Positions 1,427 to 14,600 of a DNA stretch of 62,739 bases are shown one piece after another (the first letter of the stretch is position 1; each line of letters begins with the position of its first letter). Origin of the DNA: a virus (taxonomy: Duplodnaviria > Caudoviricetes); the IMG/VR virus record IMGVR_UViG_3300041935_000004, positions 1 to 62,739 of that record; one strand, given 5' to 3'. A model generated the notes under the pieces. The model made no database searches and was not told the origin of the DNA. It saw only the letters and a list, made by a program, of their open reading frames with translations. Position numbers and translations under genes: made by a program.

Positions 1427-3469
1427 TCATGTCCTTTGGGTCATCCGCAGGTCCAGCGCCTTGCCCAGGTAGTTGCGGTTGAAGCTGATCCCGGCAGCGC
1501 GTAGCAGCCGCTCCGCCTCGCGCCACCCCGTCCCCAGCGGCACGTTCGCGGCATCAAGCTTTTTCACCACCTCATTCAACTTGAGGCCATCGGAGGTCCG
1601 GGGCCGGCCAGGCGGTCGCTTCGGCTCTTCGTCATCACCACCATTCTTTTGCTGCATCACGTATTGTTTGTATTCCTGCATCTCGTCGTCGGTGGCGACG
1701 TCGTGGCGGAGGGGATCGTCGCGCCGGATAAAAAGAATCTCGTCCGGTGAATCGTCGTCACGCAATTCACCCAGCAGTTTGATGTAGGGGCCGTTCTTGA
1801 CCAGGCCATAGGCGCCGTCACCGATAGCGGATTTCGCGCTGGAGCCCCGTTGTCCTTTTGTGGGATCCTTCCCCGCGTGGTCGAGACGAATGATCGCGAC
1901 GCCTTCACGGGTGAGCGGCTGGAGCGCGTAGGCGTCCATGCGGTTGATCGTCGTGGCGGAGTCTTCCTCGCCTTCAATGAACTTGGAGACGGTGTCGATG
2001 ATGACCAGCTCCGCGCCGCAGCGCTTGACGGCCTCCACGAACAGCGCCCCGCCCTCCTTCGTGTCGAGCAGGCCGAGGCCGGGGTTGCGGTAGTAGTGGA
2101 GGTAGGGCAGGAAGTCTTCGGGCTTGTAACCCATCTTGCGTAGCCGCTTGACCAGGGTCCGGGTCGGGTTCTCCTTGTCGAAGTAGGCGATGTGCTTGGG
2201 CGCTCGCGCTCTCGTGGCCCCGGGTGGGGTGCGCCCGGAGCACAGCGCCGCGACGGCTTCCAGCACGATCAGCGACTTACCGGCTTTCGCCTTGCTGAAC
2301 AGCGCGATCGATCCTTCGCGCTGGATGAACGGTTCCCACACCCACAGCGGTTCGTCGTCCACGTGCTCGAACCAGTACCGGAAGTCAAATTCCGGGCACA
2401 TGGTCTCCAGCGCCGCATCCAACGCCGGGTTCTGCGTATGGGCCGGCGGGATCCAGGCGTCGGGGTCGGCATCCACGGCCCGCAACCGCGCTTCCAGGGT
2501 GGGCGGGGCCGCCTCCTGCGCCGCCAGGGCCAGCGCGCCCAGCGTGGACGTGCTGTATCCCTCGATCGGGCCGATCTCCAGGCCCTTGCGGTGTTTACCC
2601 CAGGACAGGTTGACCATGGCGTCGACCCGGCCGATGTACTTCGTGTACTGGATGAAGTCGCACCACTCGGCCATCAACGTGACGGCCTGGCCCTCGGTGT
2701 AGCCGGCCTCTTTCAGCTCCAGCACGATGTAGTGGAACCGCTTGGACCGGTAAGGCCAGACTTCTTCCTCGCCGAGAAGCAGTTGCAGCTTGCGCGGCAG
2801 CGTGTCCCGGTCGACGTCCTCAGGCTGGGCGTAGACGCCGGTGCCCCGTGCCGGTGCGGCGGCCGTGCCTTCCGGTGCTCGCACCTTCTCCAGCAGCCAA
2901 TCAGGGGCCAGGCCGGGCCGGTTGTTCTCATCGTCCCACGTCGCGTACGGGCCTTTGACCGACACCGACGGCGGGGCGATCACCATCCCGCCTTCACCCC
3001 GGATGTCGACGCCCGGGTACCCCTTGAACGGGCCGGACGCCACCACCACGCCGGGCGGCAACTTGAAGACGATCTGGAAGTTGTCCTTCCCGCCGGTCTT
3101 GTGCCGACGCATCGGCTGCCAGACCTGGCCTTCGCCCTCGGCGCACAGGCGCTCCCAGGATTCCCGCCCCCCGGGCTTGTCCAAGTCCAGATCAAGCACC
3201 CAGATCCGGGAGATGGTGCCGGTGACGATGCCGACGTTGGCGTCCGGGTATTCCTCCCAATACGCCTCAACGTCGGCCAGCGACGTGGCTGGTTGCTTCG
3301 TCCACGCCGAGATGACCGGGTGCTTACCGCCCGACTCGCACAGCGGGCCTTTCCGGCACGTGCAGAATCTCCGGCCGTCGGCGGTGAGGGTGGTCCCGTA
3401 GGCCGGGATGACAGCCATGCCGAACCACTTCACGTACTGCTGCGCGGCGAGTTTGCATCCTTCGGTCAC
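1427..3469 (-). CDS. Bifunctional primase-polymerase (Prim-Pol) fused to AAA/RepA-like helicase
   Basis: CTC...GKHP, NVGIVTG, VLDLD, DIRGEGGMVIAPPS; Walker A SKAKAGKS, Walker B VIIDT, HAGK...RGSSA; start may extend to 3589. Confidence 0.92.
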   Translation of the reverse strand: MTEGCKLAAQQYVKWFGMAVIPAYGTTLTADGRRFCTCRKGPLCESGGKHPVISAWTKQPATSLADVEAYWEEYPDANVGIVTGTISRIWVLDLDLDKPGGRESWERLCAEGEGQVWQPMRRHKTGGKDNFQIVFKLPPGVVVASGPFKGYPGVDIRGEGGMVIAPPSVSVKGPYATWDDENNRPGLAPDWLLEKVRAPEGTAAAPARGTGVYAQPEDVDRDTLPRKLQLLLGEEEVWPYRSKRFHYIVLELKEAGYTEGQAVTLMAEWCDFIQYTKYIGRVDAMVNLSWGKHRKGLEIGPIEGYSTSTLGALALAAQEAAPPTLEARLRAVDADPDAWIPPAHTQNPALDAALETMCPEFDFRYWFEHVDDEPLWVWEPFIQREGSIALFSKAKAGKSLIVLEAVAALCSGRTPPGATRARAPKHIAYFDKENPTRTLVKRLRKMGYKPEDFLPYLHYYRNPGLGLLDTKEGGALFVEAVKRCGAELVIIDTVSKFIEGEEDSATTINRMDAYALQPLTREGVAIIRLDHAGKDPTKGQRGSSAKSAIGDGAYGLVKNGPYIKLLGELRDDDSPDEILFIRRDDPLRHDVATDDEMQEYKQYVMQQKNGGDDEEPKRPPGRPRTSDGLKLNEVVKKLDAANVPLGTGWREAERLLRAAGISFNRNYLGKALDLRMTQRT

Positions 3470-3504
3470 AGCATCACCCCCCGTCGAATCGGTCGAAACT
3501 CCAG

Positions 3505-3599
3505 TGCCCTGCCGGGTGTCGAACCCGGGCGCCGCGTACCCCCGGTGAAAGAAGGAGGGGCGTGGCCGGAAGCCACTGCGGTCGCGCACCTGCCAGGGC
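3505..3599 (-). ncRNA. tRNA-like structured element 1
   Basis: Minus strand GCCCUG...CCGGG-UUCGACA-CCCGG-CAGGGC-A: 5-bp T-arm plus 6-bp acceptor-type stem, atypical interior. Confidence 0.55.
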
Positions 3600-3612
3600 G
3601 TTCAGGTGGGCG

Positions 3613-3870
3613 CTACCGGCCGCTCACGGCCACACCCGAGGCGTCATCACCGTCGGTACTGCGCGCCGGATGGTCCCCAGCCAGCTGCAACCGGTTGGCG
3701 CACGACTCGCACAGCCGCAGCCACGGGATACCGGCGATGTGGCTGACCACCTTGTCGGTCTTCCAGCCGGCCACCGTGCCCCATTGGCGTTCACCCCGGA
3801 TGTTGGGGCACCCGTGGGCGTGGATGATGTGGCTGGACCCCTGGTGCGCCGACCGGTACCAGGCGCTCAC
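3613..3870 (-). CDS. Hypothetical protein (HxHxC, CESC)
   Basis: Overlap-coupled ORF. Confidence 0.6.
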   Translation of the reverse strand: MSAWYRSAHQGSSHIIHAHGCPNIRGERQWGTVAGWKTDKVVSHIAGIPWLRLCESCANRLQLAGDHPARSTDGDDASGVAVSGR

Positions 3871-4523
3871 TGGGGCACCGTGATCTCGCCCCGGGCGATC
3901 ATCGCCTGCATCGCCGCGATCGCCTCCGGGCTGAACGCCTGCGACGCCCCGTTGGCCAGGGAAGCCGCGGCGGCGGCAGGCTGGGGGGCGACCCCCGGCA
4001 TGGACGCGTACTGCGGCGCGGGGGCCTGCGCCGGCTGCTGGTACTGCGGCTGCTGCTGGTAGGCGGGCGTGACCCCGGGTGGTGCCACGGCCGCGTTGAG
4101 CCGCCCCGGCTGGGTCTGCGCCGCCCGCCCGGCGAGGGCCTCACGGTTGGCCGGCTGCCACACGTTCATGAAGAACGCCGCATCTTCGGGCTGGTGATCG
4201 TCCAGCAGGAACGGCGCGGACTGGCCGGGCTTGGCGTCGCCCAGGACGATCCGGCCCATGATGCTGTTGGTCTGGCCGGTCAGCTTGTTGACGACACCGG
4301 GCTTGTCGACCAGCGCCCCCCACTGGATACGTCCGCCCTCACCGTCGTCCAGGTCCACGAAGTCGACGGTCGCGACCTTGCGGGTCTTGCCCGGGTTCAT
4401 GGTGTCGGGCTGTTCCTCGATGCTGTGGGTACCCAGGAAGACGACGCGGTGGCCGATCATCTCCTTCAACTTGAGGAAATTGCCCTTCGGTGGCTGGCTC
4501 AGAATGATGTCGGTGTAACCCAT
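3867..4523 (-). CDS. Probable ssDNA-binding protein
   Basis: Beta-rich N-terminus, Q/P/A-rich tail, position between exonuclease and primase (inference). Confidence 0.55.
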   Translation of the reverse strand: MGYTDIILSQPPKGNFLKLKEMIGHRVVFLGTHSIEEQPDTMNPGKTRKVATVDFVDLDDGEGGRIQWGALVDKPGVVNKLTGQTNSIMGRIVLGDAKPGQSAPFLLDDHQPEDAAFFMNVWQPANREALAGRAAQTQPGRLNAAVAPPGVTPAYQQQPQYQQPAQAPAPQYASMPGVAPQPAAAAASLANGASQAFSPEAIAAMQAMIARGEITVPQ

Positions 4524-4593
4524 TACTCCCCCACTAGTCCCTTGTGGACAGTCAATTTCGAGACCCCTGCGAAATTTTTGAACCGGTTCCCTT

Positions 4594-4776
4594 CTAGCCG
4601 TCCCCGGCGCCGGGATGAACTTCCGACCATTCGACCCGCCAGCAGTCCCAGCAGCGCGGCCACACCCGCTGTTCGGCGTCGACCTTGCTCCACACCACCG
4701 GGTCGTTCTTGCAGATCGGGACCCCGCAGTGCGGGCACGCGAAGGTGAACTTCGCCGGTTCCACGTCGATCTTCAC
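4594..4776 (-). CDS. Small zinc-finger protein
   Basis: CPHC...CWDC; GTGA coupling. Confidence 0.6.
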   Translation of the reverse strand: MKIDVEPAKFTFACPHCGVPICKNDPVVWSKVDAEQRVWPRCWDCWRVEWSEVHPGAGDG

Positions 4777-4967
4777 AACGCCCCCACCCCTGGGACGTGG
4801 CCGCGCGCCCAGTCGATGACCTCGTGCAGATCCATCTCGTCGGCGATCGCGGTATGTCCCCCGCAGCCGCCGCATTCCACATAGAACCCGGGCCACTGGC
4901 CGACGCTCTTGACGTAGACCATGTCCACGACCAGGTCCAGATCCTCGGGCAGCCCGGCGATACTCAC
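4773..4967 (-). CDS. Hypothetical protein (CGGC)
   Basis: Overlap-coupled ORF. Confidence 0.6.
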   Translation of the reverse strand: MSIAGLPEDLDLVVDMVYVKSVGQWPGFYVECGGCGGHTAIADEMDLHEVIDWARGHVPGVGAL

Positions 4968-5191
4968 GCCTCCGCCTCGCCCACGCCCTGATAGGACGCG
5001 TCGAGCTCCCGGTAGGCCGCCGCCAGCTGCTTGAGATCCCCCGGCAGCCGGTTGAACTCCCCGACGAACCAGTGGAAGTCACACGGGATACCCGAGGCTG
5101 CTTCGATCGCGCAGGAACACGGGACTTCTTCGGCGAAGAAGTTGTCCAGTGCGGCGACGAACCGGATCACCGACGGCGGATGCACGCTCAC
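4964..5191 (-). CDS. Hypothetical protein
   Basis: GTG start coupled to upstream stop; CSC...CDFH. Confidence 0.55.
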   Translation of the reverse strand: MSVHPPSVIRFVAALDNFFAEEVPCSCAIEAASGIPCDFHWFVGEFNRLPGDLKQLAAAYRELDASYQGVGEAEA

Positions 5192-5370
5192 CGGAACTCC
5201 ACCCGCAGATGCCCGTCGCCACCGACGGGCGTCAGGTGCAGCTCGTCGTAGCCGTCCAGCACCGCCACCGCGTGACCCAAATGGGCCTCGTCCACGAACA
5301 GGTGCCGGCCTTCGGCTTCGGCCTGGTCGAACATGGCGCGGAGCACCACCACCGGCATGTCCATCATCAT
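5188..5370 (-). CDS. Hypothetical protein
   Basis: Overlap-coupled ORF. Confidence 0.55.
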   Translation of the reverse strand: MMMDMPVVVLRAMFDQAEAEGRHLFVDEAHLGHAVAVLDGYDELHLTPVGGDGHLRVEFR

Positions 5371-5570
5371 TATTCGCCGTCCTTTCCGACTGCCCCGATG
5401 GCTTCCCATCGGTGGATCTCGTCCGGGCTGAAACCCGCCTCGCCGTCGTTCTCCACGCTGGCCGCGACCAGCGCCAGCACGGCGTGGGTGAGGGCGTAGA
5501 GCGCCCCGTAGACGTGCGCGTCCATCTCCAGCACACGCTGCGCCTCGGTGTAGTGCTCCGGTCCGTTCAT
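5370..5570 (-). CDS. Hypothetical phage protein (MNGPEHYTEA...)
   Basis: Strong GGAGG RBS; ends in a helical hydrophobic segment. Confidence 0.7.
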   Translation of the reverse strand: MNGPEHYTEAQRVLEMDAHVYGALYALTHAVLALVAASVENDGEAGFSPDEIHRWEAIGAVGKDGE

Positions 5571-5594
5571 TGCGCCTCCGCTAGGATGTGGGCA

Positions 5595-5735
5595 GGTCGG
5601 TGCGAAGCCGTATGGGCGGGACGGTGTGAACGCGACGGGAGTCGACGCCACGCAGTCGCTGAAAGGCCAAGCGTGAACAGGACAACCTGAAGCGCGGCGA
5701 TGCTTGCCGGGGGTTCGACTCCCCTCCACCGACTC
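5595..5735 (+). ncRNA. tRNA-like structured element 2 (antisense to the operon)
   Basis: GGUCGGUG (5595-5602) pairs with CACCGACU (5727-5734); T-arm GGGGG-UUCGACU-CCCCU (5709-5725); fills the intergenic gap. Confidence 0.55.
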
Positions 5736-5943
5736 ACAGCAACTCCCCCGGGTCGATCGGTTCGGTTTTGACCAGCCCGTACCAGGTGGGCGGGCCGAAC
5801 ACCTCGTGGATCTGCTCCACCGTCCAGTCGTCGTTCCCGCCGACCAGCACGTACAGGTCCGGGCCGGGGGCGTAGTCGTAGGCGCAGATGAACCAGCGAT
5901 CACCGGCCGCGCAGATCAGCGGCACCGCGAGAGTGGGTATCAC
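5734..5943 (-). CDS. Hypothetical protein
   Basis: GTGA coupling to the exonuclease stop. Confidence 0.55.
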   Translation of the reverse strand: MIPTLAVPLICAAGDRWFICAYDYAPGPDLYVLVGGNDDWTVEQIHEVFGPPTWYGLVKTEPIDPGELL

Positions 5944-6701
5944 GCCTCCCCCTTGAATCCGGGGCAGCCCAGCTCCGGATGGTTCACGGCCACGACCGGT
6001 GCGTACCACGGGCACCAGCTGCACGGGCCGTCGGCCATGGCCAGGGCGTTGAACATCTGCGGCTGCGCGGTGAGGATCGGCGCCATGTCCACCAGGCCGT
6101 ACCAGCGCTGGAACGCTTCCTCCACGACGTTCACGTCGTAGGGCTCCACCCACACGTGGACGTCGCGCAGGAACCCTGAGCGGGGCCAGCCGGCAATCGC
6201 CACGTGCGTGACGTCCATGCCTTGGCGCCAGCACCCGAACCCGTAGGCGTGGACCTGTACCCGGTACTGCGGCTTGGCGCCGTGCCGCTTGAGGGAATCC
6301 AGGCTGGCCTTGCCCAGCACCTTGTGGTCGATGACCACGAACCCGACCCCGTCCATGGGGTGGCGCAGCAGGTCGAACGTGCCGTAGAGGTTCGGGCCGA
6401 TCTCCATGGTGGTGCCCAGTGACCATTTACCCGGGTCACCTTCGAACGCCTTGGTCAGCGGCCCGTCGTGGCAGGCCGATCCCACCGTGGCCGGCCACGG
6501 GTCGCCGGGTGCGCCCAGCGGCGGGGCACCGGTGGCGTGGTAGCCGAGGTTGCGCGTGCACGGGTGCCCGAGCCCGGACGCGCCCATGCTGCGCTGCTTG
6601 GACCGGGGCCGGTCGGCCTCGGATGCCCGGACCGCGGTCTTCAGTTCCTTGGCCAGACGATCGGCCAGCGTCCCGGGCTGAGAGAGCGTGATCTCACTCA
6701 T
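5940..6701 (-). CDS. Cas4-like PD-(D/E)XK exonuclease
   Basis: ASGLGHPC, GTFD, IDHK, QVHAY, CSWC...C (1+3 Cys layout). Confidence 0.88.
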   Translation of the reverse strand: MSEITLSQPGTLADRLAKELKTAVRASEADRPRSKQRSMGASGLGHPCTRNLGYHATGAPPLGAPGDPWPATVGSACHDGPLTKAFEGDPGKWSLGTTMEIGPNLYGTFDLLRHPMDGVGFVVIDHKVLGKASLDSLKRHGAKPQYRVQVHAYGFGCWRQGMDVTHVAIAGWPRSGFLRDVHVWVEPYDVNVVEEAFQRWYGLVDMAPILTAQPQMFNALAMADGPCSWCPWYAPVVAVNHPELGCPGFKGEA

Positions 6702-6918
6702 TGCCCTCACCCCGGACCGAGTCGATCATCGCGTCGGTGAAGACCTCCGCCATCCGCCGGTAGCCGACGTTGGCGCTGACGGCCAGGGTGTGGGCCAGGC
6801 CGTTGTTGCGGCAGGTCGCGACTTTCATCCAGTCGACGGTGTGCCCGTTGGCATCCAGGATCCGCATCAGGATGTCGTCGCCTTCGCTGCGGTACTGGTC
6901 CTTGTGGTCGTCGGTCAT
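6694..6918 (-). CDS. Hypothetical protein
   Basis: Operon-coupled ORF. Confidence 0.6.
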   Translation of the reverse strand: MTDDHKDQYRSEGDDILMRILDANGHTVDWMKVATCRNNGLAHTLAVSANVGYRRMAEVFTDAMIDSVRGEGNE

Positions 6919-7208
6919 AGCCCCACCCGTTCACGCATCTGGTCGAAGGTCGCCAGCCGCGTCTTCAGCTCAGCCAGGTACCTCTCCGTGGCGGCCTGAC
7001 GCGCCACCCAGTCGACGGCCCGGGCATCGGCCTGGGACTGGGCGGTGGCCCGTTCAGCGTCCAGCGCTTCGTTGGCGTAGTCGACCAGGACGGTCGCCCA
7101 GCCGGACGCGGTCGTGGACCCCACGAAAACGTCGTCCTTCTCGGGGTCCTCGCCGGTCTGCAGGTAGATGGTGTGCCCGTTGTGGCGGCCGGTGCGGAAA
7201 CGCATCAT
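6915..7208 (-). CDS. Hypothetical protein (RTGRHNGHTIY)
   Basis: Operon-coupled ORF. Confidence 0.65.
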   Translation of the reverse strand: MMRFRTGRHNGHTIYLQTGEDPEKDDVFVGSTTASGWATVLVDYANEALDAERATAQSQADARAVDWVARQAATERYLAELKTRLATFDQMRERVGL

Positions 7209-7522
7209 GAGCTGGCCCCGTCCACGCGGATGCTCTCCGGCCCGACGTTCAGCGTCGTCTCCCACCGGGCCAGCTTCGCGACCTGCGCCAGCCCGGCGAG
7301 GGTGGCGCGGATGATCGCGGTGTAGTCGGCCGGTACCGCGTCGTGGCACGGAATGGTGACGGTGATCTCCCGGGGCCGGGTCACCAGCGGGTCCCCACCG
7401 ATGAAACTGGCGGTGACGTAGATGCTCGGGGTGACCTGCCCGAGTTCGGCTTCCGGGAAGTCACCGGCCACCTGGTCGACCTGGGCCAGCCCCGGCCCGA
7501 AGTCGTGCCCGGGGGCGTTCAC
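7205..7522 (-). CDS. Hypothetical protein
   Basis: GTGA coupling. Confidence 0.55.
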   Translation of the reverse strand: MNAPGHDFGPGLAQVDQVAGDFPEAELGQVTPSIYVTASFIGGDPLVTRPREITVTIPCHDAVPADYTAIIRATLAGLAQVAKLARWETTLNVGPESIRVDGASS

Positions 7523-7854
7523 GTCTCGTCCTCGGTGACCAGCGTGAAACGCCGCACGAACGAGGTGGTCACGAACTGGTTCCACACTTCGGGGCTGTTC
7601 TTCTTCAGCGCCTTCTGGTCCAGCGAGTGCCGTACGTGCTTGGTCCAGCGCACCACCGGGCGGCCGTTGACCGTCGCGGTTTCCGCGTCGCCCATCTCGT
7701 CTTGAATGCTGGCTTTGATCTCGTCGTGCTCGGTGGCCAGCTCCGCGATCTTCGACCCGATCCACGCCATCCGGGCGAGCCGATCGTTGAGGTGGTCCAG
7801 CGCGATCGTCGGTGTGAGCGCGACGTCGATGTCGTCGGTGTCCACGGCGGTCAC
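7519..7854 (-). CDS. Coiled-coil protein resembling the C-terminal part of YqaJ-type recombination nucleases
   Basis: MGDAETATVNG...W...LDQKALKK...FV...RRF pattern. Confidence 0.6.
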   Translation of the reverse strand: MTAVDTDDIDVALTPTIALDHLNDRLARMAWIGSKIAELATEHDEIKASIQDEMGDAETATVNGRPVVRWTKHVRHSLDQKALKKNSPEVWNQFVTTSFVRRFTLVTEDET

Positions 7855-8483
7855 GCGAACGTCAGGTCGAACGGGGCTGCGAAGTTCAGCGCCTGGACCG
7901 GGTCGATCAGCGGGGCCTCCACGAACCACTTCATCGTGGTGTCGCTGATCGTGGGGAAGGTCGAGTTGTACAGGGCGACCTGCGTGGTCCACGTCGCCGG
8001 GGCGTCGGACGGCTCCGCCCTCGGTTCCTGGCCGGGGCCGGGGTGGGCGTCGATGGCCGCGTCGATGTCGGCGTCGGTGACCGACAGCAGCATCGCCAGG
8101 GCCTGCGCCCCGTCGGTGCATTCCGAGTCGTTCCACCGGGTGATCCAGGAGTCGTAGACGTTGATCGCCCAGCCGGTGACGGCGCAGATGCGCCGGGCGA
8201 GCGCACCCTTCGTGCGGATCAGCAGCAGCTGCGTCAGCTCGGGCAGGGCGCTGACGTGGATGGGGACCTCGGGCTGGCCGGCGATGGTCCGGTTGATCGC
8301 CCCGGCAAGGCAGAAGTGGTTGTCGAAGGTCTGCCATTCGCCGCGGACCCAGCCGTGTTCGGTCAGGAGCGTCGCAGCGTCGGCCAGGGCGGCCCGGACG
8401 GCGGCACGTGGCCCGGTCGCGCGGCCGGTCGCCTCGGCGGGAATGTTGACGACGGGGACGGGAGGTATGGCGGGTTGGGACAT
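7851..8483 (-). CDS. Conserved actinobacterial hypothetical protein (DUF6197-like)
   Basis: L..HGWVRG...FCLAGAI...ITRWND. Confidence 0.55.
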   Translation of the reverse strand: MSQPAIPPVPVVNIPAEATGRATGPRAAVRAALADAATLLTEHGWVRGEWQTFDNHFCLAGAINRTIAGQPEVPIHVSALPELTQLLLIRTKGALARRICAVTGWAINVYDSWITRWNDSECTDGAQALAMLLSVTDADIDAAIDAHPGPGQEPRAEPSDAPATWTTQVALYNSTFPTISDTTMKWFVEAPLIDPVQALNFAAPFDLTFA

Positions 8484-8575
8484 GGTTCTACTCCGGTGGT
8501 GTGGTGTGGCCCGAGTGGCCAAAATGGACAGTCGGGTACGCGAAAAACCGAGAAATTTTCTGGACGGGGACCGAC

Positions 8576-8650
8576 CCTGGGAAGTGCCCCCCGAGAGGGA
8601 CGCGTCGGCTCGCCCACTCCCGCCGACGCGCCCCTCAACGGGCGCCCCAG
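8576..8650. other. Long imperfect intergenic hairpin
   Basis: CGCGTCGGC / GCCGACGCG core extended by GAGAGGG/CCCCTC and CTGGG/CCCAG. Confidence 0.55.
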
Positions 8651-8659
8651 CGGGAACGC

Positions 8660-8866
8660 TCAGCCAGCCAGCAGACTCTGGGCGATGAGCGCTTCGACCG
8701 ATTCGGCGGTCACCCGAACCGTCTGGGTACTGAGTGCGACCCGCACCAGCCGGCCGGCGTCGGCGTAGCTGCGGACGGTGCGGGGGTCGATCCGCAGCTG
8801 CTCCGCCGCTTCGCTGTAGGTCAGCAGCTGCGTCTGTGGTCGGACCTCGGGCACGGTGGTGCGCAT
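8660..8866 (-). CDS. Excisionase/MerR-type helix-turn-helix DNA-binding protein
   Basis: LLTYSEAAEQLRIDPRTVRSYADAGRL. Confidence 0.85.
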   Translation of the reverse strand: MRTTVPEVRPQTQLLTYSEAAEQLRIDPRTVRSYADAGRLVRVALSTQTVRVTAESVEALIAQSLLAG

Positions 8867-8955
8867 GCGTAGCCCCCCCGAGCTAACGATGATCGTTACC
8901 TGAACTCCGGCCTCGCGTCGCTGGTCAGCGGTGGTGCGCCCGGCCGAATGGGATG

Positions 8956-8986
8956 AACCTACACAGACGCGACGAACAGATGTCAA
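8956..8986 (-). promoter_or_regulatory. Leftward sigma70-type promoter for the replication operon
   Basis: TTGACA-19 nt-TAGGTT on the minus strand in a divergent gap. Confidence 0.55.
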
Positions 8987-9208
8987 GAGTTGCGAAGGGG
9001 TCAAATTCTGATACGCCTGCAACAGGCGGAGAAGGGGGGATGACGACGGAAAACCGCGCGGGAAAACGCGACTCGCCCGAACACTCCCGGGGCCATGACC
9101 TGCGACGATGTCACCAGACGATGACAGCGTGGGACGTCTCCACCGAGGTCTGCGCGTTTCCGCGTGTCGCCCTCTATGTCACGGTTCGCGGGGTTTACCC
9201 TCCCGTGC

Positions 9209-9442
9209 ATGCCAACGACGACGCTCTACTCCCCCGCCTGGTCGGACGCCCCCGCCCCGGCCCGAAATAGCTACGCGGTGCGCTACCGGCGACGAGGTAC
9301 CGAGGTCCAGCGCACCACCCCGGCCGGGGACGGCTGGACCACGTTCGCGGTCGCGGATGACACCGAGCACGCCGACTACATCGTCAAGTGCCTCAGCTTC
9401 TTCGCCCCGCACGAGACCTTCGACCTGGCGCAGAGCGCATGA
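9209..9442 (+). CDS. Hypothetical protein, possibly leaderless
   Basis: TACCCT 7 nt before the ATG; first gene of the rightward unit. Confidence 0.55.
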   Translation: MPTTTLYSPAWSDAPAPARNSYAVRYRRRGTEVQRTTPAGDGWTTFAVADDTEHADYIVKCLSFFAPHETFDLAQSA

Positions 9443-9675
9443 GCACCGGCTACCAGCGCCACCCCGACGACCTGCCACCGCGCCAGCCCGGGCGCGACGT
9501 GACGATGCTGCGCGGCTTCATCGGAGTGCTCATGCTCGGCATGGCCATCGCCACCGTGTTCATGTGGCTGTCCGGGAACACCAGCACCGGCGACGCGGTA
9601 GTTGTCGCGGTCGCCTGGGGGCTGATGGTCGCCGCCTACGTGATGGCCGGTCACCTGCCCCGGGCGCGTCGGTGA
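9439..9675 (+). CDS. Two-TM membrane protein
   Basis: Two hydrophobic segments; ATGA coupling. Confidence 0.7.
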   Translation: MSTGYQRHPDDLPPRQPGRDVTMLRGFIGVLMLGMAIATVFMWLSGNTSTGDAVVVAVAWGLMVAAYVMAGHLPRARR

Positions 9676-9694
9676 ACGCGACCCAGAGCCGCAA

Positions 9695-9880
9695 TTGAGC
9701 CCCTACAGGCGTCGCCGGCGCTCCGGGGGTGCGGACTTCTGCCACGACTGCCACCACGGTCACATCGCCCACCACGACGGCATCGGCAAGTGCTTCGGGG
9801 AACGGAAGTTCGCCGGGGAATGGGTCGACTGCCAATGCCCCCAGTTCGTGAAACCACCACCGGAGGATGAGGATGCGTAA
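9695..9880 (+). CDS. Small Cys/His-rich protein
   Basis: CHDCHHGH...H...C...CQC. Confidence 0.55.
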   Translation: MSPYRRRRRSGGADFCHDCHHGHIAHHDGIGKCFGERKFAGEWVDCQCPQFVKPPPEDEDA

Positions 9881-10121
9881 CCTCGGCCGGGGCATTGCCA
9901 CTGTGGACGTGGAAGCGATCAACGCCGCCCTCCACAACCAGCGCCTGGCCTACAACCTCTCGGGCATGGCCCCGCTGTCCGAACAGATGGGCATCGGGCG
10001 TAACACGTTGTACCGGATGGGCTACGGCATCCCGCCCGACGCCCAGAACCTCGCCGCGATCCTGTTCTGGCTGGGCGAACGCCAGTGGTGGATCAAACCC
10101 CGCGACGACCAGCCACAATAG
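9873..10121 (+). CDS. XRE/Cro-like HTH protein (repressor candidate)
   Basis: LSEQMGIGRNTLYRM...PDAQNLAAILFWLG. Confidence 0.75.
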   Translation: MRNLGRGIATVDVEAINAALHNQRLAYNLSGMAPLSEQMGIGRNTLYRMGYGIPPDAQNLAAILFWLGERQWWIKPRDDQPQ

Positions 10122-10305
10122 GCGCGCGCCGGGGTGGCGCGAACGCCTGTCAGCGTGAAAGAACAGACCCGGCGCGGGAAGGCACCGAGGGGGTTCTCGC
10201 ACAATCCCTCTTCCCGCGCCACCCTGCCCCCGCCGCCGGTGGGGCGCGGAGTTGTAGAAGGAAAACCACACCGGTCCGTCCGACCGCTCAAGGGCAACAT
10301 GACAC

Positions 10306-10480
10306 ACCCTCGGGGTTGCTGGGTTCAGGTATGGAACTTGCGACGCGGCCACCCCAGGGGTGAGCGGTCAACCAGCAAGGGCGTTGGGTCACACCGGCTC
10401 CCTACTGGTCCACACTGGGTGTAGTTCCATACCTTCTCGGCAGGCTCCGCGCATGGACGGTTCGATTCCGCCCGGGGGCA
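10306..10480 (+). ncRNA. tRNA/tmRNA-like structured element 3
   Basis: CCCUCG (10307-10312)/CGGGGG (10473-10478) stem; perfect 12-bp helix 10327-10338 with 10423-10434; T-arm GACGG-UUCGAUU-CCGCC with one mismatch. Confidence 0.55.
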
Positions 10481-10481
10481 C

Positions 10482-10814
10482 GTGGAAACGCTACGAAGCT
10501 GGTTCAACGGGCAGGACATCGAATGCCCCTACTGCGGCTCCCCGATCAACGCTCACGCGGAAGCAAAGAGGGCCGGGGGTTCACGCCCACCCCGCCCCGG
10601 GGACGCCTCGCTGTGCTCGCACTGCAAGGGCTTCGCGATCTACGAGGCCACCGACCCGTTCGGGACGAGCCTGGCCCTTCGCCCGCCCACGAAGAGTGAG
10701 GCCGGGGACATCGCCGCGCTCTACCCCGGCGTGGTCGGCGCTGTCCTGCCCGAGGTGAAAGCGCGACTGCGGGCGGCCGGCATCTACATCGAGCAGCCCC
10801 ACGAACGGGACTGA
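10482..10814 (+). CDS. Zinc-ribbon protein
   Basis: CPYC...CSHC. Confidence 0.7.
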   Translation: METLRSWFNGQDIECPYCGSPINAHAEAKRAGGSRPPRPGDASLCSHCKGFAIYEATDPFGTSLALRPPTKSEAGDIAALYPGVVGAVLPEVKARLRAAGIYIEQPHERD

Positions 10815-12941: not shown

Positions 12942-13136
12942 ATGACCGAAACTCTTCTCAACTACAAGGAAGCAGCCGAGTACCTGGGCTGCAAGGTCGA
13001 CACCCTTCAGCGGTGGTCGGCACGCCACGACATCGAGCGGATCAAGTACGACAATGGGCAGGTGAAGTTCAAGCCAGAGTTCTTGAATGACTACATCGAG
13101 CGATGCCGCGAACCTAGTCGCTGGCAGCGGAAGTAA
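12942..13136 (+). CDS. xis: Excisionase (recombination directionality factor)
   Basis: LLNYKEAAEYLGCKVDTLQRW HTH; adjacent and convergent to integrase. Confidence 0.8.
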   Translation: MTETLLNYKEAAEYLGCKVDTLQRWSARHDIERIKYDNGQVKFKPEFLNDYIERCREPSRWQRK

Positions 13137-14352
13137 GACCCGTGACGTGGCGCACCAATCGGGCCAACGCCTCTGGGCTGACGTTTGAATAAGTCTTCAT
13201 CAGCTCGCTTTTCGAGTGACCGGTCTGTGCAGCCACGGCTTCGACCGGCACCTGCTCGTCACTGCTGCGCGCCCATTGCACGTAAGCGTGGCGCAGGTAG
13301 TGAGGGGTCGGTAGAAGGTCGGGTTCCAGCCACGCCAGATCCCCGGCCTCTACCGCCTTCTCCACGGCCTGCTTGAACTGGTAGCTAAATCCCCCGTGGG
13401 ACCATGCCTGTTCCGGGTACATCGGCGATCGAAACACCAAACCACGGCGACCGGTCTTCAAGATGAACTCGCGCAGCCTCGCAGCGAAGTCGGGGCCGAT
13501 GAGGACCATGCGAGGTTCTTTGTTCTTCGGCCGAGATCGGTGGCGGTTCCGCTCCTGCTCATAGATCGCCACACCGGCTACGCCCTCCACTGCGACCAGG
13601 TGTGTCGACTGGAACGCGATCATCTCCCCGAGGCGGCATCCAGTAAGGGCGAGGAATTCGATCATCAGCCGGATTTCTTCGGTGCGCCCGTGCTTGCGAA
13701 TGGCTAGGTACTGATCTTGCCGCATACCCCGCTCAGCGGCGCGACGCCGGCCGGCCGGTACGTCATAGCCGTACAGCGTGTCCAGGGGCAGCAGGCTCTT
13801 GATCATCGCCACCTTGATGACTTCGACAACGAACTGCATCGTGGTCCGGATGGTCAGTGGCGAGTAGGGCTTAGTCGGCACCGGCTTACCCCACAGGGCT
13901 TTCTTGAGCGCTTCCTCGAAGTCGATGATGAGGTCAAGGTCGACGTCCTTGACCGGGGTGTCGTACAGCGAGCGGCCAGCCTCTGTGAGGAACTTCGTGC
14001 GGTTCAACCGTTCGCGATTGGCGTCCTGCGAGTCATCCGTCATCCGCCGCGACTTGAATCTGATATGCCGTTCCGCGAACTCGCCAAAGGTCTCTTCCTT
14101 CACCACCATCGCCGTCGGACGCGGAGGGATCGTCACGTCGATCCGGTACTGCCCCGAAACAACGGCGTCATCGCCAGGCGATACACACGCTTCCCAGTGG
14201 TCTAGGTAGTCCTGAAACTTCCGCGCTTCGACATCGCTGAGAAACGTCTTCGCGTGAGTCCTGCGAGTCTCCCGGTTAGTCCAGCGGACACGCGGGTCCG
14301 CACCGTTCGGACGATCGACGTAGCTCCACTTACGCTTACCAAGCTTCGGCAT
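13114..14352 (-). CDS. int: Tyrosine integrase
   Basis: TGCRLGE (R), K in RPKNK, HYLRH, GH, TY; start MPKLGK at 14352 inferred. Confidence 0.93.
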   Translation of the reverse strand: MPKLGKRKWSYVDRPNGADPRVRWTNRETRRTHAKTFLSDVEARKFQDYLDHWEACVSPGDDAVVSGQYRIDVTIPPRPTAMVVKEETFGEFAERHIRFKSRRMTDDSQDANRERLNRTKFLTEAGRSLYDTPVKDVDLDLIIDFEEALKKALWGKPVPTKPYSPLTIRTTMQFVVEVIKVAMIKSLLPLDTLYGYDVPAGRRRAAERGMRQDQYLAIRKHGRTEEIRLMIEFLALTGCRLGEMIAFQSTHLVAVEGVAGVAIYEQERNRHRSRPKNKEPRMVLIGPDFAARLREFILKTGRRGLVFRSPMYPEQAWSHGGFSYQFKQAVEKAVEAGDLAWLEPDLLPTPHYLRHAYVQWARSSDEQVPVEAVAAQTGHSKSELMKTYSNVSPEALARLVRHVTGLTSAASD

Positions 14353-14359
14353 GACGTAC

Positions 14360-14600
14360 TTGCTCGCTCTCAAAACCGGAGTGGCGTGAACCCCGTACGC
14401 GTACTGGGGCCCAGCGAGCATAACAAAGATGCAGGTCAGAGCGGTCTTTAGGAGATCCAGTACATTTCCCATATAACCCAGTTTGACCTGCGGTTTTACG
14501 AAAGTGAAGATTGTGAATGTCGGAGTTATCCGGAGTTGTCATCAGCCGTTCGGACTAGTACGCAGCAGTTAGCCACCCAGTACGCGTACGCAGATTCTGT
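14360..14600. other. Probable attP region
   Basis: Non-coding, upstream of int; perfect 15-bp inverted repeat 14394-14408/14576-14590; GCAGGTCA/TGACCTGC pair; tandem CGGAGTTRTC repeats 14521-14540. Confidence 0.65.

What the first reader, a model, noticed from the sequence alone, without database searches (positions are those of the whole stretch)
3505..10480. Three intergenic tRNA-like RNAs: T-arm and acceptor-type stem around unrelated interiors
Seen: three non-coding gaps (3505-3599 minus, 5595-5735 plus, 10306-10480 plus) each end in a 5-bp stem with a UUCGANN loop, followed by a strand that pairs with a 5' segment 95-175 nt upstream. None has a canonical D-arm and anticodon arm or an encoded CCA, and the three interiors differ. 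Known: the T-arm/acceptor stack is what RNase P, RNase Z and the CCA-adding enzyme recognise, and tmRNA, bacterial Y RNAs and mascRNA reuse it. Inference: the phage may use tRNA-like scaffolds to have host enzymes excise and stabilise small RNAs, to punctuate its polycistronic mRNAs, or as decoys for tRNA-targeting defences. This is my best candidate for an undescribed system.
Basis: partly seen in the sequence, partly recalled or inferred. Interest (0 to 1): 0.85.

Follow-up and report, generated by a model that had tools for sequence, protein, structure and literature searches.

The report
Three conserved phage tRNA-like RNAs
A soil phage genome carries three related small RNA elements that copy only the top half of a transfer RNA, are kept with matching base-pair changes in related phages, fit no known RNA family, and most likely serve as cutting signals for the host's tRNA-processing enzymes inside early phage transcripts.

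Summary
The finding is real, with one wrong boundary. The window, a 62.7-kb, 66% GC temperate actinophage-like contig, holds three paralogous tRNA-like elements: TLD-1 at 3504-3600 (-), TLD-2 at 5595-5734 (+) and TLD-3 at 10226-10480 (+). TLD-3 starts at 10226, not 10306.

Each has an acceptor stem, a small D-like hairpin or loop, one long variable arm in place of the anticodon arm, a T-arm with a UUCGANN loop, and no encoded CCA. ARAGORN and Rfam 15 find no tRNA, tmRNA or other family.

Within this one sequence the motif is no more frequent than chance. Six related metagenome contigs settle the question:
- **TLD-1:** it lies upstream of the prim-pol/helicase gene in 6 of 6 loci, 34-43 nt in five and about 800 nt in L001. 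A model built without the window finds it at 42 bits, E 8e-7.
- **TLD-2 and TLD-3:** each has homologues with compensatory base-pair changes.

My best reading (confidence 0.5) is that they are phage counterparts of plant-mitochondrial t-elements. Host RNase P, RNase Z and the CCA-adding enzyme would cut them out of early operons, setting mRNA ends and releasing stable small RNAs. No RNA data exist to test this. I rate it a new variant of a known kind.

The parts
3504..3600 (-). TLD-1 (family 1), a 97-nt tRNA-like RNA. It comprises an acceptor stem (3594-3599 with 3506-3511), a mini D-like hairpin (3586-3593), a long variable arm (3529-3585), a T-arm (3512-3528) and the tail AC (3504-3505).
   Evidence: Fold. 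Model R1, built from five relatives without the window, scores it 42 bits, E 8.3e-7, with all 20 model pairs kept. R2 scores it 60.6 bits.
5595..5734 (+). TLD-2 (family 2), a 140-nt tRNA-like RNA. It has an 8-bp acceptor stem (5595-5602 with 5727-5734), a T-arm (5709-5725), one unpaired C (5726) and an interior of several hairpins. It lies antisense to the flanking minus-strand genes.
   Evidence: It is 77% identical over 148 nt to L005:2711-2855, blastn E 2.8e-19, in inverted orientation relative to the neighbouring genes. RNAalifold finds 37 pairs, 5 of them with both sides changed, including the acceptor U-A to C-G. The best Rfam match is tRNA-Sec at 24.2 bits against a cut-off of 47.
10226..10480 (+). 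TLD-3 (family 3), a 255-nt RNA closed by a tRNA-like domain. It comprises an acceptor stem (10226-10232 with 10473-10479), a mini hairpin (10233-10242), a long closing helix (10244-10251 with 10445-10452), a T-arm with a bulged A (10455-10472), discriminator A (10480) and a large divergent interior (10252-10444).
   Evidence: Homologues are L001:845-1058(-) and L003:2617-2813(-), found. RNAalifold independently recovers the acceptor stem, mini stem, closing helix and T-arm, and 11 of its 41 pairs have both sides changed.
1427..3469 (-). Prim-pol/helicase gene whose start lies 34 nt downstream of TLD-1.
   Evidence: Pfam PF09250 and PF13481 on the called protein P0001. PHROG DNA primase hits. 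Homologues align from residues 3-19 onward.
3613..3870 (-). Upstream ORF of 85 aa. Its stop codon lies 13 nt before the 5' end of TLD-1.
   Evidence: GC3 of 0.88. No family match.
10482..10814 (+). ORF of 110 aa whose GUG start lies 2 nt after the discriminator of TLD-3. Its only Shine-Dalgarno-like run (GGGGG) is the acceptor 3' strand itself.
   Evidence: Sequence. GC3 of 0.85. No family match.
9867..10121 (+). Last ORF upstream of TLD-3 on the same strand.
   Evidence: GC3 of 0.88. The neighbouring ORF at 9695-9880 is syntenic with L001 and L003.
5370..5570 (-). Small minus-strand ORF of 66 aa, with an ATG preceded by GGAGG. It flanks TLD-2 on its low-coordinate side.
   Evidence: Sequence. 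ORF list. Its 3' part overlaps a block syntenic with L001 and L003 (window 5188-5370).
5940..6710 (-). Cas4-family exonuclease gene on the high-coordinate side of TLD-2.
   Evidence: PHROG 1674 exonuclease, E 6e-47.

Best explanation
The window encodes three paralogous tRNA-like-domain (TLD) RNAs. Each keeps the top half and elbow of a tRNA: an acceptor stem of 6-8 bp stacked on a 5-bp T-arm with a UUCGANN loop, plus a small D-like hairpin or loop carrying a GG. A long helix of variable length and sequence replaces the anticodon arm. There is no variable loop and no encoded CCA.

Shown here: the elements are conserved in related temperate actinophage-like contigs, with compensatory base-pair changes. 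They lie in intergenic gaps of the early replication/recombination region. They match no known RNA family.

Inferred: they work like plant-mitochondrial t-elements. Host RNase P cuts at the 5' end of the acceptor stem. RNase Z cuts after the discriminator, as for the CCA-less tRNA genes I recall as usual in Actinobacteria. The CCA-adding enzyme then tails the released RNA.

[quoted passage not shown] Downstream genes affected would be prim-pol/helicase for TLD-1 and the 10482 ORF for TLD-3. The larger interiors of TLD-2 and TLD-3 may have further roles.

I put the claim that these are real conserved tRNA-like RNAs at about 0.9. The processing or punctuation mechanism stands at about 0.5.
For: Homologues and linkage:
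- A T-arm plus acceptor 3' strand lies upstream of the prim-pol/helicase gene in 6 of 6 loci that include the gene's 5' end. These are the window, L001 and L003-L006, whose primases are 32-56% identical to the window's.
- The spacer to the start codon is 34-43 nt in five of them, counted from the sequences. L001 has about 800 nt in between.

Independent detection:
- Model R1, built from the five relatives only, finds window 3504-3600(-) at 42 bits, E 8.3e-7. The best unrelated hit scores 17.6 bits.

Pairing statistics:
- On 11 family-1-like sequences, 99.4% of 177 cells pair, against 42-54% when the partner strand is slid.
- Three pairs show changes on both sides. One acceptor position is C-G in 7 sequences and U-A in 4.

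TLD-3:
- The 5' 23 nt are identical to L003.
- One position of the closing helix is G-C, C-G or U-A in the three genomes, and another is C-G or U-A.

TLD-2:
- It is 77% identical to L005, more than most flanking coding blocks (66-78%).
- The acceptor changes from U-A to C-G, and two hairpin stems change on both sides.

Strand: G-U pairs in all three families would be A-C mismatches on the other strand, which fixes the T-loop strand as the functional one.

Position:
- TLD-1 starts 13 nt after the upstream stop in the window, and 3-15 nt after it in L003, L004 and L006 (read).
- TLD-3 ends 2 nt before the next start codon in the window, and about 24 and 27 nt before it in L001 and L003.

Wider class: five more IMG/VR contigs carry the family-1-type 3' end. 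All have a pairing 5' strand, none is an ARAGORN tRNA, and four of the five (not L028) have annotated early, regulatory or replication/recombination genes nearby. Two are bare acceptor/T-arm mini-elements of 42-50 nt.

Precedent: plant-mitochondrial t-elements are non-canonical cloverleaves with a GGTTCRANYCC arm. Their ends coincide with mRNA termini and they receive non-templated C/A additions (PMC1920247, passages read).
Against: - No RNA evidence exists. The only run holding the sequence is the source DNA metagenome, so transcription, cleavage and CCA addition are all untested.
- TLD-2 lies antisense to both neighbouring genes in the window, yet is in sense orientation in L005. A pure punctuation signal should not work that way. 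It behaves like a movable, self-contained gene.
- The interiors of TLD-2 and TLD-3 are large and partly conserved, which a cutting signal does not need.
- The acceptor/T stack is the canonical 12 bp only in TLD-3. It is 11, or 12 counting a U-G or a mismatch, in TLD-1. It is 13 with a bulged C in TLD-2.
- The comparative sample is small: 6, 2 and 3 sequences. Five of the 11 rows were fetched with a pattern that fixes the T-arm and the 3' strand, and that alignment is fitted to the model.
- Covariation measured as counts of pairs or pair types is modest: 3 pairs, reached by 23 of 500 shuffles.
- No promoter-like site was found.
Confidence: 0.5

Rival explanations
1. The released RNAs act in trans as mimics of the tRNA top half. 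They would soak up a host factor that recognises the acceptor/T minihelix or the 3' CCA end. Candidates are abortive-infection toxins that modify tRNA acceptor ends, such as MenT nucleotidyltransferases or toxSAS enzymes, or SmpB of the tmRNA system.
For: - Only the acceptor stem, elbow and T-arm are conserved, while the arm varies freely.
- Mini-versions of 42-50 nt are little more than a minihelix.
- TLD-2 moves between positions and strands like an independent gene.
- MenT toxins extend tRNA acceptor stems, and toxSAS FaRel2 inspects the acceptor stem and is implicated in antiphage immunity (PMC10435456 by title, PMC11559606 by title and start of abstract; search listing only).
- The family-1 D-like segment shares GAACGGU with the 5' region of an Amycolatopsis tmRNA.
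Against: - No defence system or target is identified.
- TLD-1 is always linked to the primase 5' UTR, which points to a cis role.
- There is no G3-U70 and no tag reading frame, and the tmRNA model finds nothing.
- The 7-nt tmRNA resemblance is short enough to be chance.
Confidence: 0.2
2. The elements are cis-acting 5'-UTR structures that are not excised. They would protect the downstream mRNA from 5'-end-dependent decay, or gate translation by hiding or exposing the ribosome-binding site.
For: - TLD-1 lies a fixed 34-43 nt before the primase start in five loci.
- In the window, the acceptor 3' strand of TLD-3 (GGGGG) is the only Shine-Dalgarno-like run before the GUG at 10482.
Against: - A generic stabiliser or RBS trap has no need for a T-loop consensus in three paralogues and in distant contigs.
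- In L001 and L003 the gene downstream of TLD-3 has its own Shine-Dalgarno outside the element.
- TLD-2 is antisense to its neighbours in the window.
Confidence: 0.15
3. TLD-1 is a structured single-strand DNA initiation signal or origin recognised by the adjacent prim-pol/helicase. The resemblance to tRNA would then be incidental.
For: - Linkage to the primase gene is strict, 6 of 6 loci.
- Covariation would also be expected for a DNA hairpin.
- From recall, not from any call: plasmid RSF1010 RepB' primase recognises hairpin ssi sites.
Against: - The same T-loop consensus and core occur in TLD-2 and TLD-3, which are not next to the primase.
- G-U pairs fix one strand and are weak in DNA.
- No AT-rich stretch is evident in the 3470-3612 gap; iterons were not searched for.
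- The IMG/VR relatives lie next to other genes.
Confidence: 0.07
4. The elements are decayed tRNA or tmRNA genes, or tRNA 3' fragments left by site-specific integration (att-type remnants), and have no present function.
For: - The 3' 22 nt of TLD-3 are identical to the 3' end of a phage tRNA-Arg (L067), and close to actinobacterial tRNA-Arg genes.
- IMG/VR holds tRNA-Arg 3' fragments without 5' halves (L042, L053, L060).
- The phage carries a tyrosine integrase.
Against: - The 5' acceptor strands are present and co-vary with the 3' strands.
- The cores are better conserved than the surrounding genes, even where the primases are only 32-56% identical.
- The integrase gene is 3-10 kb away from all three elements.
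- Pseudogenes would not keep 99% pairing.
Confidence: 0.05
5. The motifs are chance matches in GC-rich DNA.
For: Single-sequence statistics are not significant, and folding z-scores are modest.
Against: - A model trained without the window finds TLD-1 at E 8e-7.
- TLD-2 matches L005 by blastn at E 3e-19.
- The TLD-3 ends are conserved in two syntenic contigs, with compensatory changes.
Confidence: 0.03

Closest known systems
Plant-mitochondrial t-elements (tRNA-like processing signals; PMC1920247, passages read)
   Same: Both are non-canonical cloverleaves that keep the GGTTCRANYCC pseudouridine arm and an acceptor stem. Both lie directly upstream or downstream of protein-coding genes in polycistronic transcripts and have no decoding function. 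In plants their ends coincide with mRNA ends made by RNase P and RNase Z, and the excised element carries non-templated C/A.
   Different: The phage elements are in a virus of bacteria, form three paralogous families, and carry long inserted arms of up to about 190 nt. One is antisense to its neighbours. Cleavage has not been shown for them.
tmRNA tRNA-like domain (Rfam RF00023)
   Same: The architecture matches: acceptor stem, stem-less or mini D region with a GG, a long helix that closes a large interior, a T-arm and an acceptor 3' strand, with no variable loop. Family 1 shares GAACGGU with the 5' region of an Amycolatopsis tmRNA.
   Different: - No hit to the tmRNA model at E <= 10.
- Position 3-70 is C-G, not G-U.
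- No conserved tag reading frame.
- ARAGORN finds no tmRNA.
- Sizes are 97-255 nt, against about 395 nt for the Amycolatopsis tmRNA.
Bacterial Y RNAs, YrlA (PMC4201824, passages read)
   Same: Both are non-coding RNAs with a tRNA-like T-arm and D region. M. smegmatis YrlA is cut by RNase P and receives CCA. YrlA-type RNAs are also reported in phages. The family-1 segment GGCGAACG fits the paper's GNCGAAN0-1G motif.
   Different: - In YrlA the tRNA-like module is internal and the RNA ends form the Ro60-binding stem. Here the ends form the acceptor stem.
- No Ro60/TROVE gene is seen among the 65 early/accessory-region ORFs scanned, out of 94 GC3-called.
- No Rfam hit was found.
- The motif match is short and absent from families 2 and 3.
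mascRNA/MALAT1 and murine gammaherpesvirus TMER tRNA-like RNAs (Rfam RF01684; TMER papers seen only in the search listing)
   Same: Both are tRNA-like modules used so that tRNA-processing enzymes cut a longer transcript. They are not aminoacylated and CCA is added after cleavage (recalled).
   Different: Those are eukaryotic systems. The mascRNA model scores 13.9 bits against a cut-off of 42.5.
Ordinary phage tRNA genes, and the T4 stable RNAs in its tRNA cluster (the latter recalled; the search did not retrieve a paper on them)
   Same: Both are small, variably present, intergenic RNA genes in phage genomes, sometimes in tandem. TLD-2 and TLD-1 are adjacent in L005.
   Different: - There is no anticodon arm.
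- ARAGORN finds nothing.
- The tRNA model's best hit is 10 bits, covering the T-arm only.

Membership tests
tRNA (Rfam RF00005 / ARAGORN) | Score at or above the family cut-off, or an ARAGORN call. | tested here: not met
   ARAGORN finds 0 genes in the window. The best RF00005 hit is 10 bits at 5708-5725, against a cut-off of 29. Rfam at gathering thresholds gives 0 hits.
tRNA (Rfam RF00005 / ARAGORN) | Anticodon arm with a 7-nt loop, and a canonical D-arm. | tested here: not met
   The folds and alignments show a long variable helix instead, and only a 2-3-bp mini hairpin. ARAGORN with introns allowed returns one forced 'tRNA-Trp' with a 163-nt intron and a mismatched acceptor stem, which ignores the conserved 5' strand.
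tRNA (Rfam RF00005 / ARAGORN) | Acceptor stem stacked on a 5-bp T-arm with a UUCRANN loop. | tested here: met
   The stack is 7+5 in TLD-3, 6(7)+5 in TLD-1, and 8+5 with a bulged C in TLD-2.
tmRNA (RF00023 and clan) | Model score at or above the cut-off. | tested here: not met
   No match at E <= 10 in the window, while the same search scores 126.9 bits on an Amycolatopsis genome. beta_tmRNA scores 6 bits on the T-arm only.
tmRNA (RF00023 and clan) | G3-U70 alanine identity pair. | tested here: not met
   The pair is C3-G70 in TLD-3, C-G in family 1 and U-A or C-G positions in TLD-2.
tmRNA (RF00023 and clan) | Conserved tag reading frame ending in a stop codon. | tested here: inconclusive
   Three-frame translations of the family 2 and 3 members show no shared peptide. 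The two family-2 members each have a short frame ending ...A-stop at the same place, which is weak evidence.
YrlA / bacterial Y RNA | Encoded next to a Ro60 (TROVE) gene, with a Ro-binding stem formed by the RNA ends. | tested here: not met
   No TROVE or RtcB-type hit among the 65 ORFs scanned with PHROGs; the other 29 of 94 GC3-called ORFs, the 21.5-52 kb structural block, were not scanned. None among the 18 ORFs scanned with Pfam. The RNA ends form an acceptor stem.
Plant-mitochondrial t-elements (functional class) | GGTTCRANYCC T-arm motif plus an acceptor stem in a non-canonical cloverleaf. | tested here: met
   TLD-2 has GGTTCGACTCC and TLD-3 has GGTTCGATTCC. The window's TLD-1 has GGTTCGACACC, one departure at the Y position, while its five relatives have GGTTCGAYTCC.
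Plant-mitochondrial t-elements (functional class) | Element ends coincide with mRNA ends, cleavage is by RNase P and RNase Z, and C/A is added without a template. | not testable with these tools
   No RNA run holds the sequence.
tRNA-Sec (RF01852) | Model score at or above the cut-off, and a UCA anticodon. | tested here: not met
   The score is 24.2 bits against a cut-off of 47. The alignment uses a second, mismatched 5' strand and skips 46 nt.

The most novel reading that the evidence does not exclude
These are the first members of a phage-borne class of tRNA top-half mimic RNAs that act in trans. After RNase P and RNase Z excision and CCA addition, they would present a non-chargeable acceptor/T minihelix with an elbow. 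This would titrate a host factor aimed at tRNA 3' ends or at the tRNA-like domain of tmRNA. Candidates are MenT- or toxSAS-type abortive-infection toxins, or SmpB.

Under this reading, one copy is hard-wired in front of the replication gene so that it is made at the onset of the early programme. The larger paralogues would carry extra modules.
Probability: 0.15. Interest if true: 0.85.

Novelty: new variant of a known kind. Interest (0 to 1): 0.64.

Why it matters
tRNA-like modules that borrow the tRNA-processing enzymes are known from mitochondria (t-elements), mammals (mascRNA), a herpesvirus (TMERs) and bacteria (tmRNA, YrlA). My five literature searches and Rfam 15 turned up no description of such elements punctuating phage operons.

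If the mechanism holds, it would be an RNase P/RNase Z counterpart of the RNase III sites that, as I recall, cut the T7 early transcript. Its setting would be high-GC hosts, where leaderless and processed mRNAs are common.

The work also yields a concrete covariance model for finding more of these elements, which standard tRNA finders skip. It leaves a set of three paralogues with different cargo whose functions can be tested directly.

Tried and rejected
**Searches for relatives that found nothing useful**
- Megablast and blastn against 50,697 phage records found no relative of the region, only short coding matches.
- The search for related loci in viral contigs, with the primase alone and with alignment A1, found none.
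- Pattern scans of viral contigs for the family-1 and family-3 5' motifs returned 5 and 7 hits, all coding-sequence coincidences without a T-arm.
- Two family-2 patterns returned 0 hits.
- The single genome-contig scan, using a gapped family-1 pattern, returned 5 ordinary tRNA genes with a chance upstream match and no family member.
- The family-3 3'-end pattern in viral contigs returned 31 loci. Twenty-one are ARAGORN tRNAs (Arg, Thr, Leu). The rest are tRNA-Arg-like fragments or odd tRNA-Arg-like genes, and none has the long family-3 form.

**Other checks**
- **Expression:** no RNA holder is listed. The only run is the probable source DNA metagenome.
- **Possible fourth family:** a T-arm-like motif downstream of the primase in L003 and L004 lies inside a conserved coding sequence and was dropped.
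- **ARAGORN tRNA-Pro calls elsewhere in L004 and L006:** Rfam does not support them.
- **ARAGORN at lowered thresholds:** this gives hundreds of calls and is uninformative.
- **General model R2:** it finds no further copy in the window.
- **Promoter scan:** 0 sites.
- **tmRNA origin:** only a 7-nt shared stretch supports it. The top half of TLD-3 looks closer to tRNA-Arg.

Full report
**What the window is**

The window is a complete IMG/VR virus record of 62,739 bases. It is classed as linear, with CheckV completeness of 84%, and has 66% G+C.
- GC3-based ORF calling shows a siphovirus-like layout, mostly on the minus strand. It includes a 2125-aa ORF that, by its size and position, I take to be the tape measure, plus a portal and an endolysin.
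- The portal is about 35% identical to those of Nocardia, Rhodococcus and Gordonia phages.
- A tyrosine integrase (13114-14472, -) and excisionase-like HTH proteins mark the phage as temperate.
- Coordinates 1-13 kb hold the early replication/recombination region: RusA, prim-pol/helicase (1427-3469, -) and a Cas4-family exonuclease (5940-6710, -). A short divergent plus-strand operon lies at 9164-10814.
- No close relative exists among 50,697 deposited phages at the DNA level.

**Checking the observation**

All three spots carry a T-arm-like hairpin followed by a strand that can pair with an upstream segment.
- ARAGORN finds no tRNA or tmRNA.
- Rfam 15 finds nothing at gathering thresholds.
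- With permissive thresholds, only sub-threshold hits on the T-arm and acceptor part appear. These are tRNA-Sec at 24.2 bits (cut-off 47) for element 2, mascRNA at 13.9 bits (cut-off 42.5) for element 1, and nothing meaningful for element 3.
- The tRNA and tmRNA models run on the whole record give 10 bits and no hit respectively.

Taken alone, the motif is not beyond chance in this GC-rich sequence.
- Perfect T-arms: 3 observed against 1.4 expected.
- T-arm plus a 6-bp acceptor partner: 6 observed against 3.7 +/- 1.8.
- Folding z-scores: -1.4 to -2.8.

**Relatives**

The prim-pol/helicase has three 49-57% identical homologues in the protein collection. An alignment of these (A1) pulled six loci out of the metagenome contigs.
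- L001 (from a 65-kb contig) and L003 (from a 53-kb contig) are 54-56% identical in the primase.
- L004-L006 are 32-42% identical.
- L002 lacks the 5' end of the gene.
- blastn shows that L001 and L003 are collinear with the window over the whole early region. Coding blocks are 66-78% identical.

**Family 1 (TLD-1)**

In every locus that includes the primase 5' end there is a T-arm, CCGGG-UUCGAYU-CCCGG, followed by CGGGGC. That is 6 of 6: the window, L001 and L003-L006.
- The element ends 34-43 nt before the start codon in five loci. In L001 about 800 nt intervene.
- Upstream lies a conserved 5' part, GCCCCG-GCGAACGGUGC-UCACCG. Then comes a variable hairpin of about 35-60 nt, then CGGUGA directly abutting the T-arm.
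- Each sequence folds on its own into the same four-way junction: a 6-bp acceptor stem, a 3-bp mini hairpin whose loop holds a GG, a long arm and the T-arm.

A covariance model built from the five relatives only (A4 and R1) finds window 3504-3600(-) at 42 bits, E 8.3e-7.
- All 20 pairs are kept through changes such as C-G to U-A in the acceptor stem, and U-A and A-U to G-C in the long arm.
- The best unrelated hit in 131 kb scores 17.6 bits.

Five further IMG/VR contigs carry the family-1-type 3' end.
- All have a pairing 5' strand, and none is an ARAGORN tRNA.
- L026 is a full-length relative that also carries GGCGAACG. L029 has a true 4-bp D-arm. L027 and L028 are 42-50-nt mini-elements with almost no arm.

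On the 11 sequences together, 99.4% of 177 cells pair, against 42-54% for slid partners, and three pairs change on both sides. Two caveats apply. Five rows were fetched with a pattern that fixes the T-arm and the 3' strand, and the alignment is fitted to the model.

**Family 3 (TLD-3)**

L001 and L003 carry GGGAG-UUCGAYU-CUCCC-CGGGGGCAC at the syntenic place, on the strand opposite to the primase, as in the window.
- All three share a nearly identical 5' segment, GCCCCCG-CCG(C/A)CGGUGG-G-. Its first seven bases are the exact complement of the 3' strand.
It is 255 nt long, against 214 nt in L001 and 197 nt in L003.
- A closing helix follows the mini hairpin. It is GCGCGGAG/CUCCGCGC in the window, GUGUGCGG/CCGCACGC in L001 and GCGCGU/AUGCGC in L003. 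One position is therefore G-C, C-G or U-A in the three genomes, and another is C-G or U-A.
- RNAalifold on a plain MAFFT alignment recovers the acceptor stem, mini stem, closing helix and T-arm without my input.
- The interiors have diverged too far to align with confidence, and I found no shared reading frame.
- The 3' 22 nt equal the 3' end of a phage tRNA-Arg (L067) and resemble actinobacterial tRNA-Arg genes. The top half therefore probably derives from a tRNA-Arg.

**Family 2 (TLD-2)**

L005 holds a 145-nt homologue, 77% identical, blastn E 2.8e-19.
- The first 34 nt are identical except for one base. That U-to-C change in the acceptor 5' strand is matched by A-to-G in the 3' strand.
- An eighth terminal pair is G-U in the window and G-C in L005.
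- Two internal hairpins change on both sides: CAGG/CCUG against UCGG/CCGA, and the stem under a GGGA loop.

In L005 the element sits on the primase strand, directly upstream of family 1. L006, which is otherwise collinear, lacks it. In the window it lies 2 kb away and is inverted relative to the surrounding minus-strand genes. It therefore behaves like a small movable gene. Its several G-U pairs place the structure on the T-loop strand.

**Common plan**

All three families share the same plan: an acceptor stem, a short D-like element with a GG, a long helix in place of the anticodon arm, a T-arm, an acceptor 3' strand, a purine or other discriminator base, and no CCA.
- Families 1 and 3 align base for base in the core: GCCCC(C)G-NCG-loop ending CGG-UGN.
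- I read the three as paralogues of one tRNA-like domain (TLD).
- The general model R2 finds no fourth copy in the window.

**What they most likely do**

The conserved part is exactly what RNase P, RNase Z and the CCA-adding enzyme read, namely the acceptor/T stack and the elbow. This is established knowledge; see also PMC4919913 and PMC10424219, which I saw only in the search listing. The anticodon-side arm is free to vary and can be absent.

The elements sit in sense orientation in tight intergenic gaps of early operons.
- TLD-1 begins 13 nt after the upstream stop in the window and 3-15 nt after it in L003, L004 and L006. It ends 34-43 nt before the primase start.
- TLD-3 ends 2 nt (window), about 24 nt (L001) and about 27 nt (L003) before the next start codon.
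- Four of the five IMG/VR relatives have annotated early-module genes nearby. L027 sits after a divergent repressor pair and before an excisionase-like gene. L029 is near an exonuclease. L030 is near a clamp loader. L026 lies among HTH regulators. L028's flanking ORFs gave no such match.

This matches plant-mitochondrial t-elements. Those are non-canonical cloverleaves with the same T-arm motif, their ends coincide with mRNA ends made by RNase P and RNase Z, and they acquire non-templated C/A (PMC1920247).

I therefore take as most likely that the host's tRNA-maturation enzymes excise the TLDs. That would split the early transcript and define the ends of the neighbouring mRNAs. In the window, an RNase Z cut after A10480 would leave the 10482 ORF with a 1-nt leader, essentially leaderless. 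That would suit an actinobacterial host; this step is inference.

The steps shown are structure, conservation, position and the lack of any family match. The steps inferred are transcription, cleavage, CCA addition and the effect on the neighbouring genes.

**What does not fit**

- TLD-2 is antisense to its neighbours in the window.
- TLD-2 and TLD-3 have large, partly conserved interiors.
- The strict tie of TLD-1 to the primase gene could also mean a cis-regulatory role or a DNA-level role.

These points keep several rivals alive: a trans-acting top-half decoy, a 5'-UTR stabiliser or RBS gate, and a single-strand initiation site for the prim-pol. I rate remnants of tRNA genes or att sites, and pure chance, as unlikely, because the 5' strands co-vary with the 3' strands and the cores are better conserved than the genes around them.

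**Comparison with known families**

The elements fail the tests for four families.
- **tRNA:** no anticodon arm, and no model or ARAGORN hit.
- **tmRNA:** no model hit, C3-G70 rather than G3-U70, and no tag frame.
- **YrlA:** no Ro60 gene among the ORFs scanned, and the RNA ends form the acceptor stem.
- **tRNA-Sec and mascRNA:** scores are below the cut-offs.

They meet the structural definition of a t-element. The functional part of that definition cannot be tested here.

Two short resemblances are leads only. GAACGGU is shared with an Amycolatopsis tmRNA. GGCGAACG fits the YrlA motif GNCGAAN0-1G.

**Novelty**

Rfam 15 has no matching family for the window or for the 11 related loci. Five full-text searches turned up no description of tRNA-like processing elements or top-half mimics in phage operons. 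The library lacks most subscription journals, so an older description cannot be ruled out. [quoted passage not shown] I class the finding as a new variant of a known kind.

**Verdict**

This is a real, conserved and apparently undescribed family of phage tRNA-like RNAs. Function remains open, and t-element-like processing is the leading model.

Noticed in passing
window 3529-3585 (-), loop near 3541-3552: The long arm of TLD-1 in this window carries an unpaired CCUCCUUCUUUC stretch. From memory, this resembles the anti-Shine-Dalgarno 3' tail of 16S rRNA. On the plus strand it reads as a strong GAAGGAGG followed by GTG at 3562, heading an ORF antisense to two well-supported genes. The relatives have only generally pyrimidine-rich arms.
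   Followed up: partly
window 1 and 62739; L001:12799-16595, L003:12765-16758: Synteny with L001, L003 and L004 runs off window position about 300 and continues at about 62579. The record ends are therefore arbitrary, from a circularly permuted or circular assembly, and are not true genome termini.
   Followed up: no
L005:2711-2855 against L006:2401-2447: L005 and L006 are collinear, except that L005 has the roughly 145-nt family-2 element inserted between the upstream stop codon and family 1. I saw no target-site duplication or terminal repeats.
   Followed up: partly
L048 and L055 (IMG/VR), about 57 nt upstream of the pattern match at 1501-1522: Two contigs carry a tRNA-Arg(CCU)-like gene with a normal anticodon loop (UUCCUAA) and T-arm but an aberrant D region. 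ARAGORN does not call it.
   Followed up: no
L042, L053, L060 (IMG/VR), pattern match at 1501-1522: These are tRNA-Arg 3' fragments running from the anticodon loop to the 3' end, with no 5' half. They look like attP-type cores for integration into tRNA-Arg.
   Followed up: no
L003:12456-12472 and L004:4176-4192: A perfect T-arm-like motif is conserved downstream of the primase. It turned out to lie inside a conserved protein-coding sequence (...RRSFDLIRVSGRTELMYRD...). This shows how easily the motif alone misleads.
   Followed up: yes
window 5582-5587 (+): A TAGGAT hexamer, which fits the -10-like pattern TANNNT, lies 7 nt upstream of the first base of TLD-2. It could give this antisense-oriented element its own promoter. 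The consensus scan reports no sigma-70-type site.
   Followed up: partly
window 5597-5603 and 5620-5626 (+): TLD-2 contains two similar 5' strands, GUCGGUG and GACGGUG, that could each pair with the 3' strand. Covariation with L005 favours the first. The Rfam tRNA-Sec alignment uses the second. An alternative conformation is possible.
   Followed up: partly
L004:7221-7305 and L006:1383-1453: ARAGORN calls a tRNA-Pro in each of these loci. Rfam finds no tRNA at gathering score in either, so they are probably false positives.
   Followed up: partly
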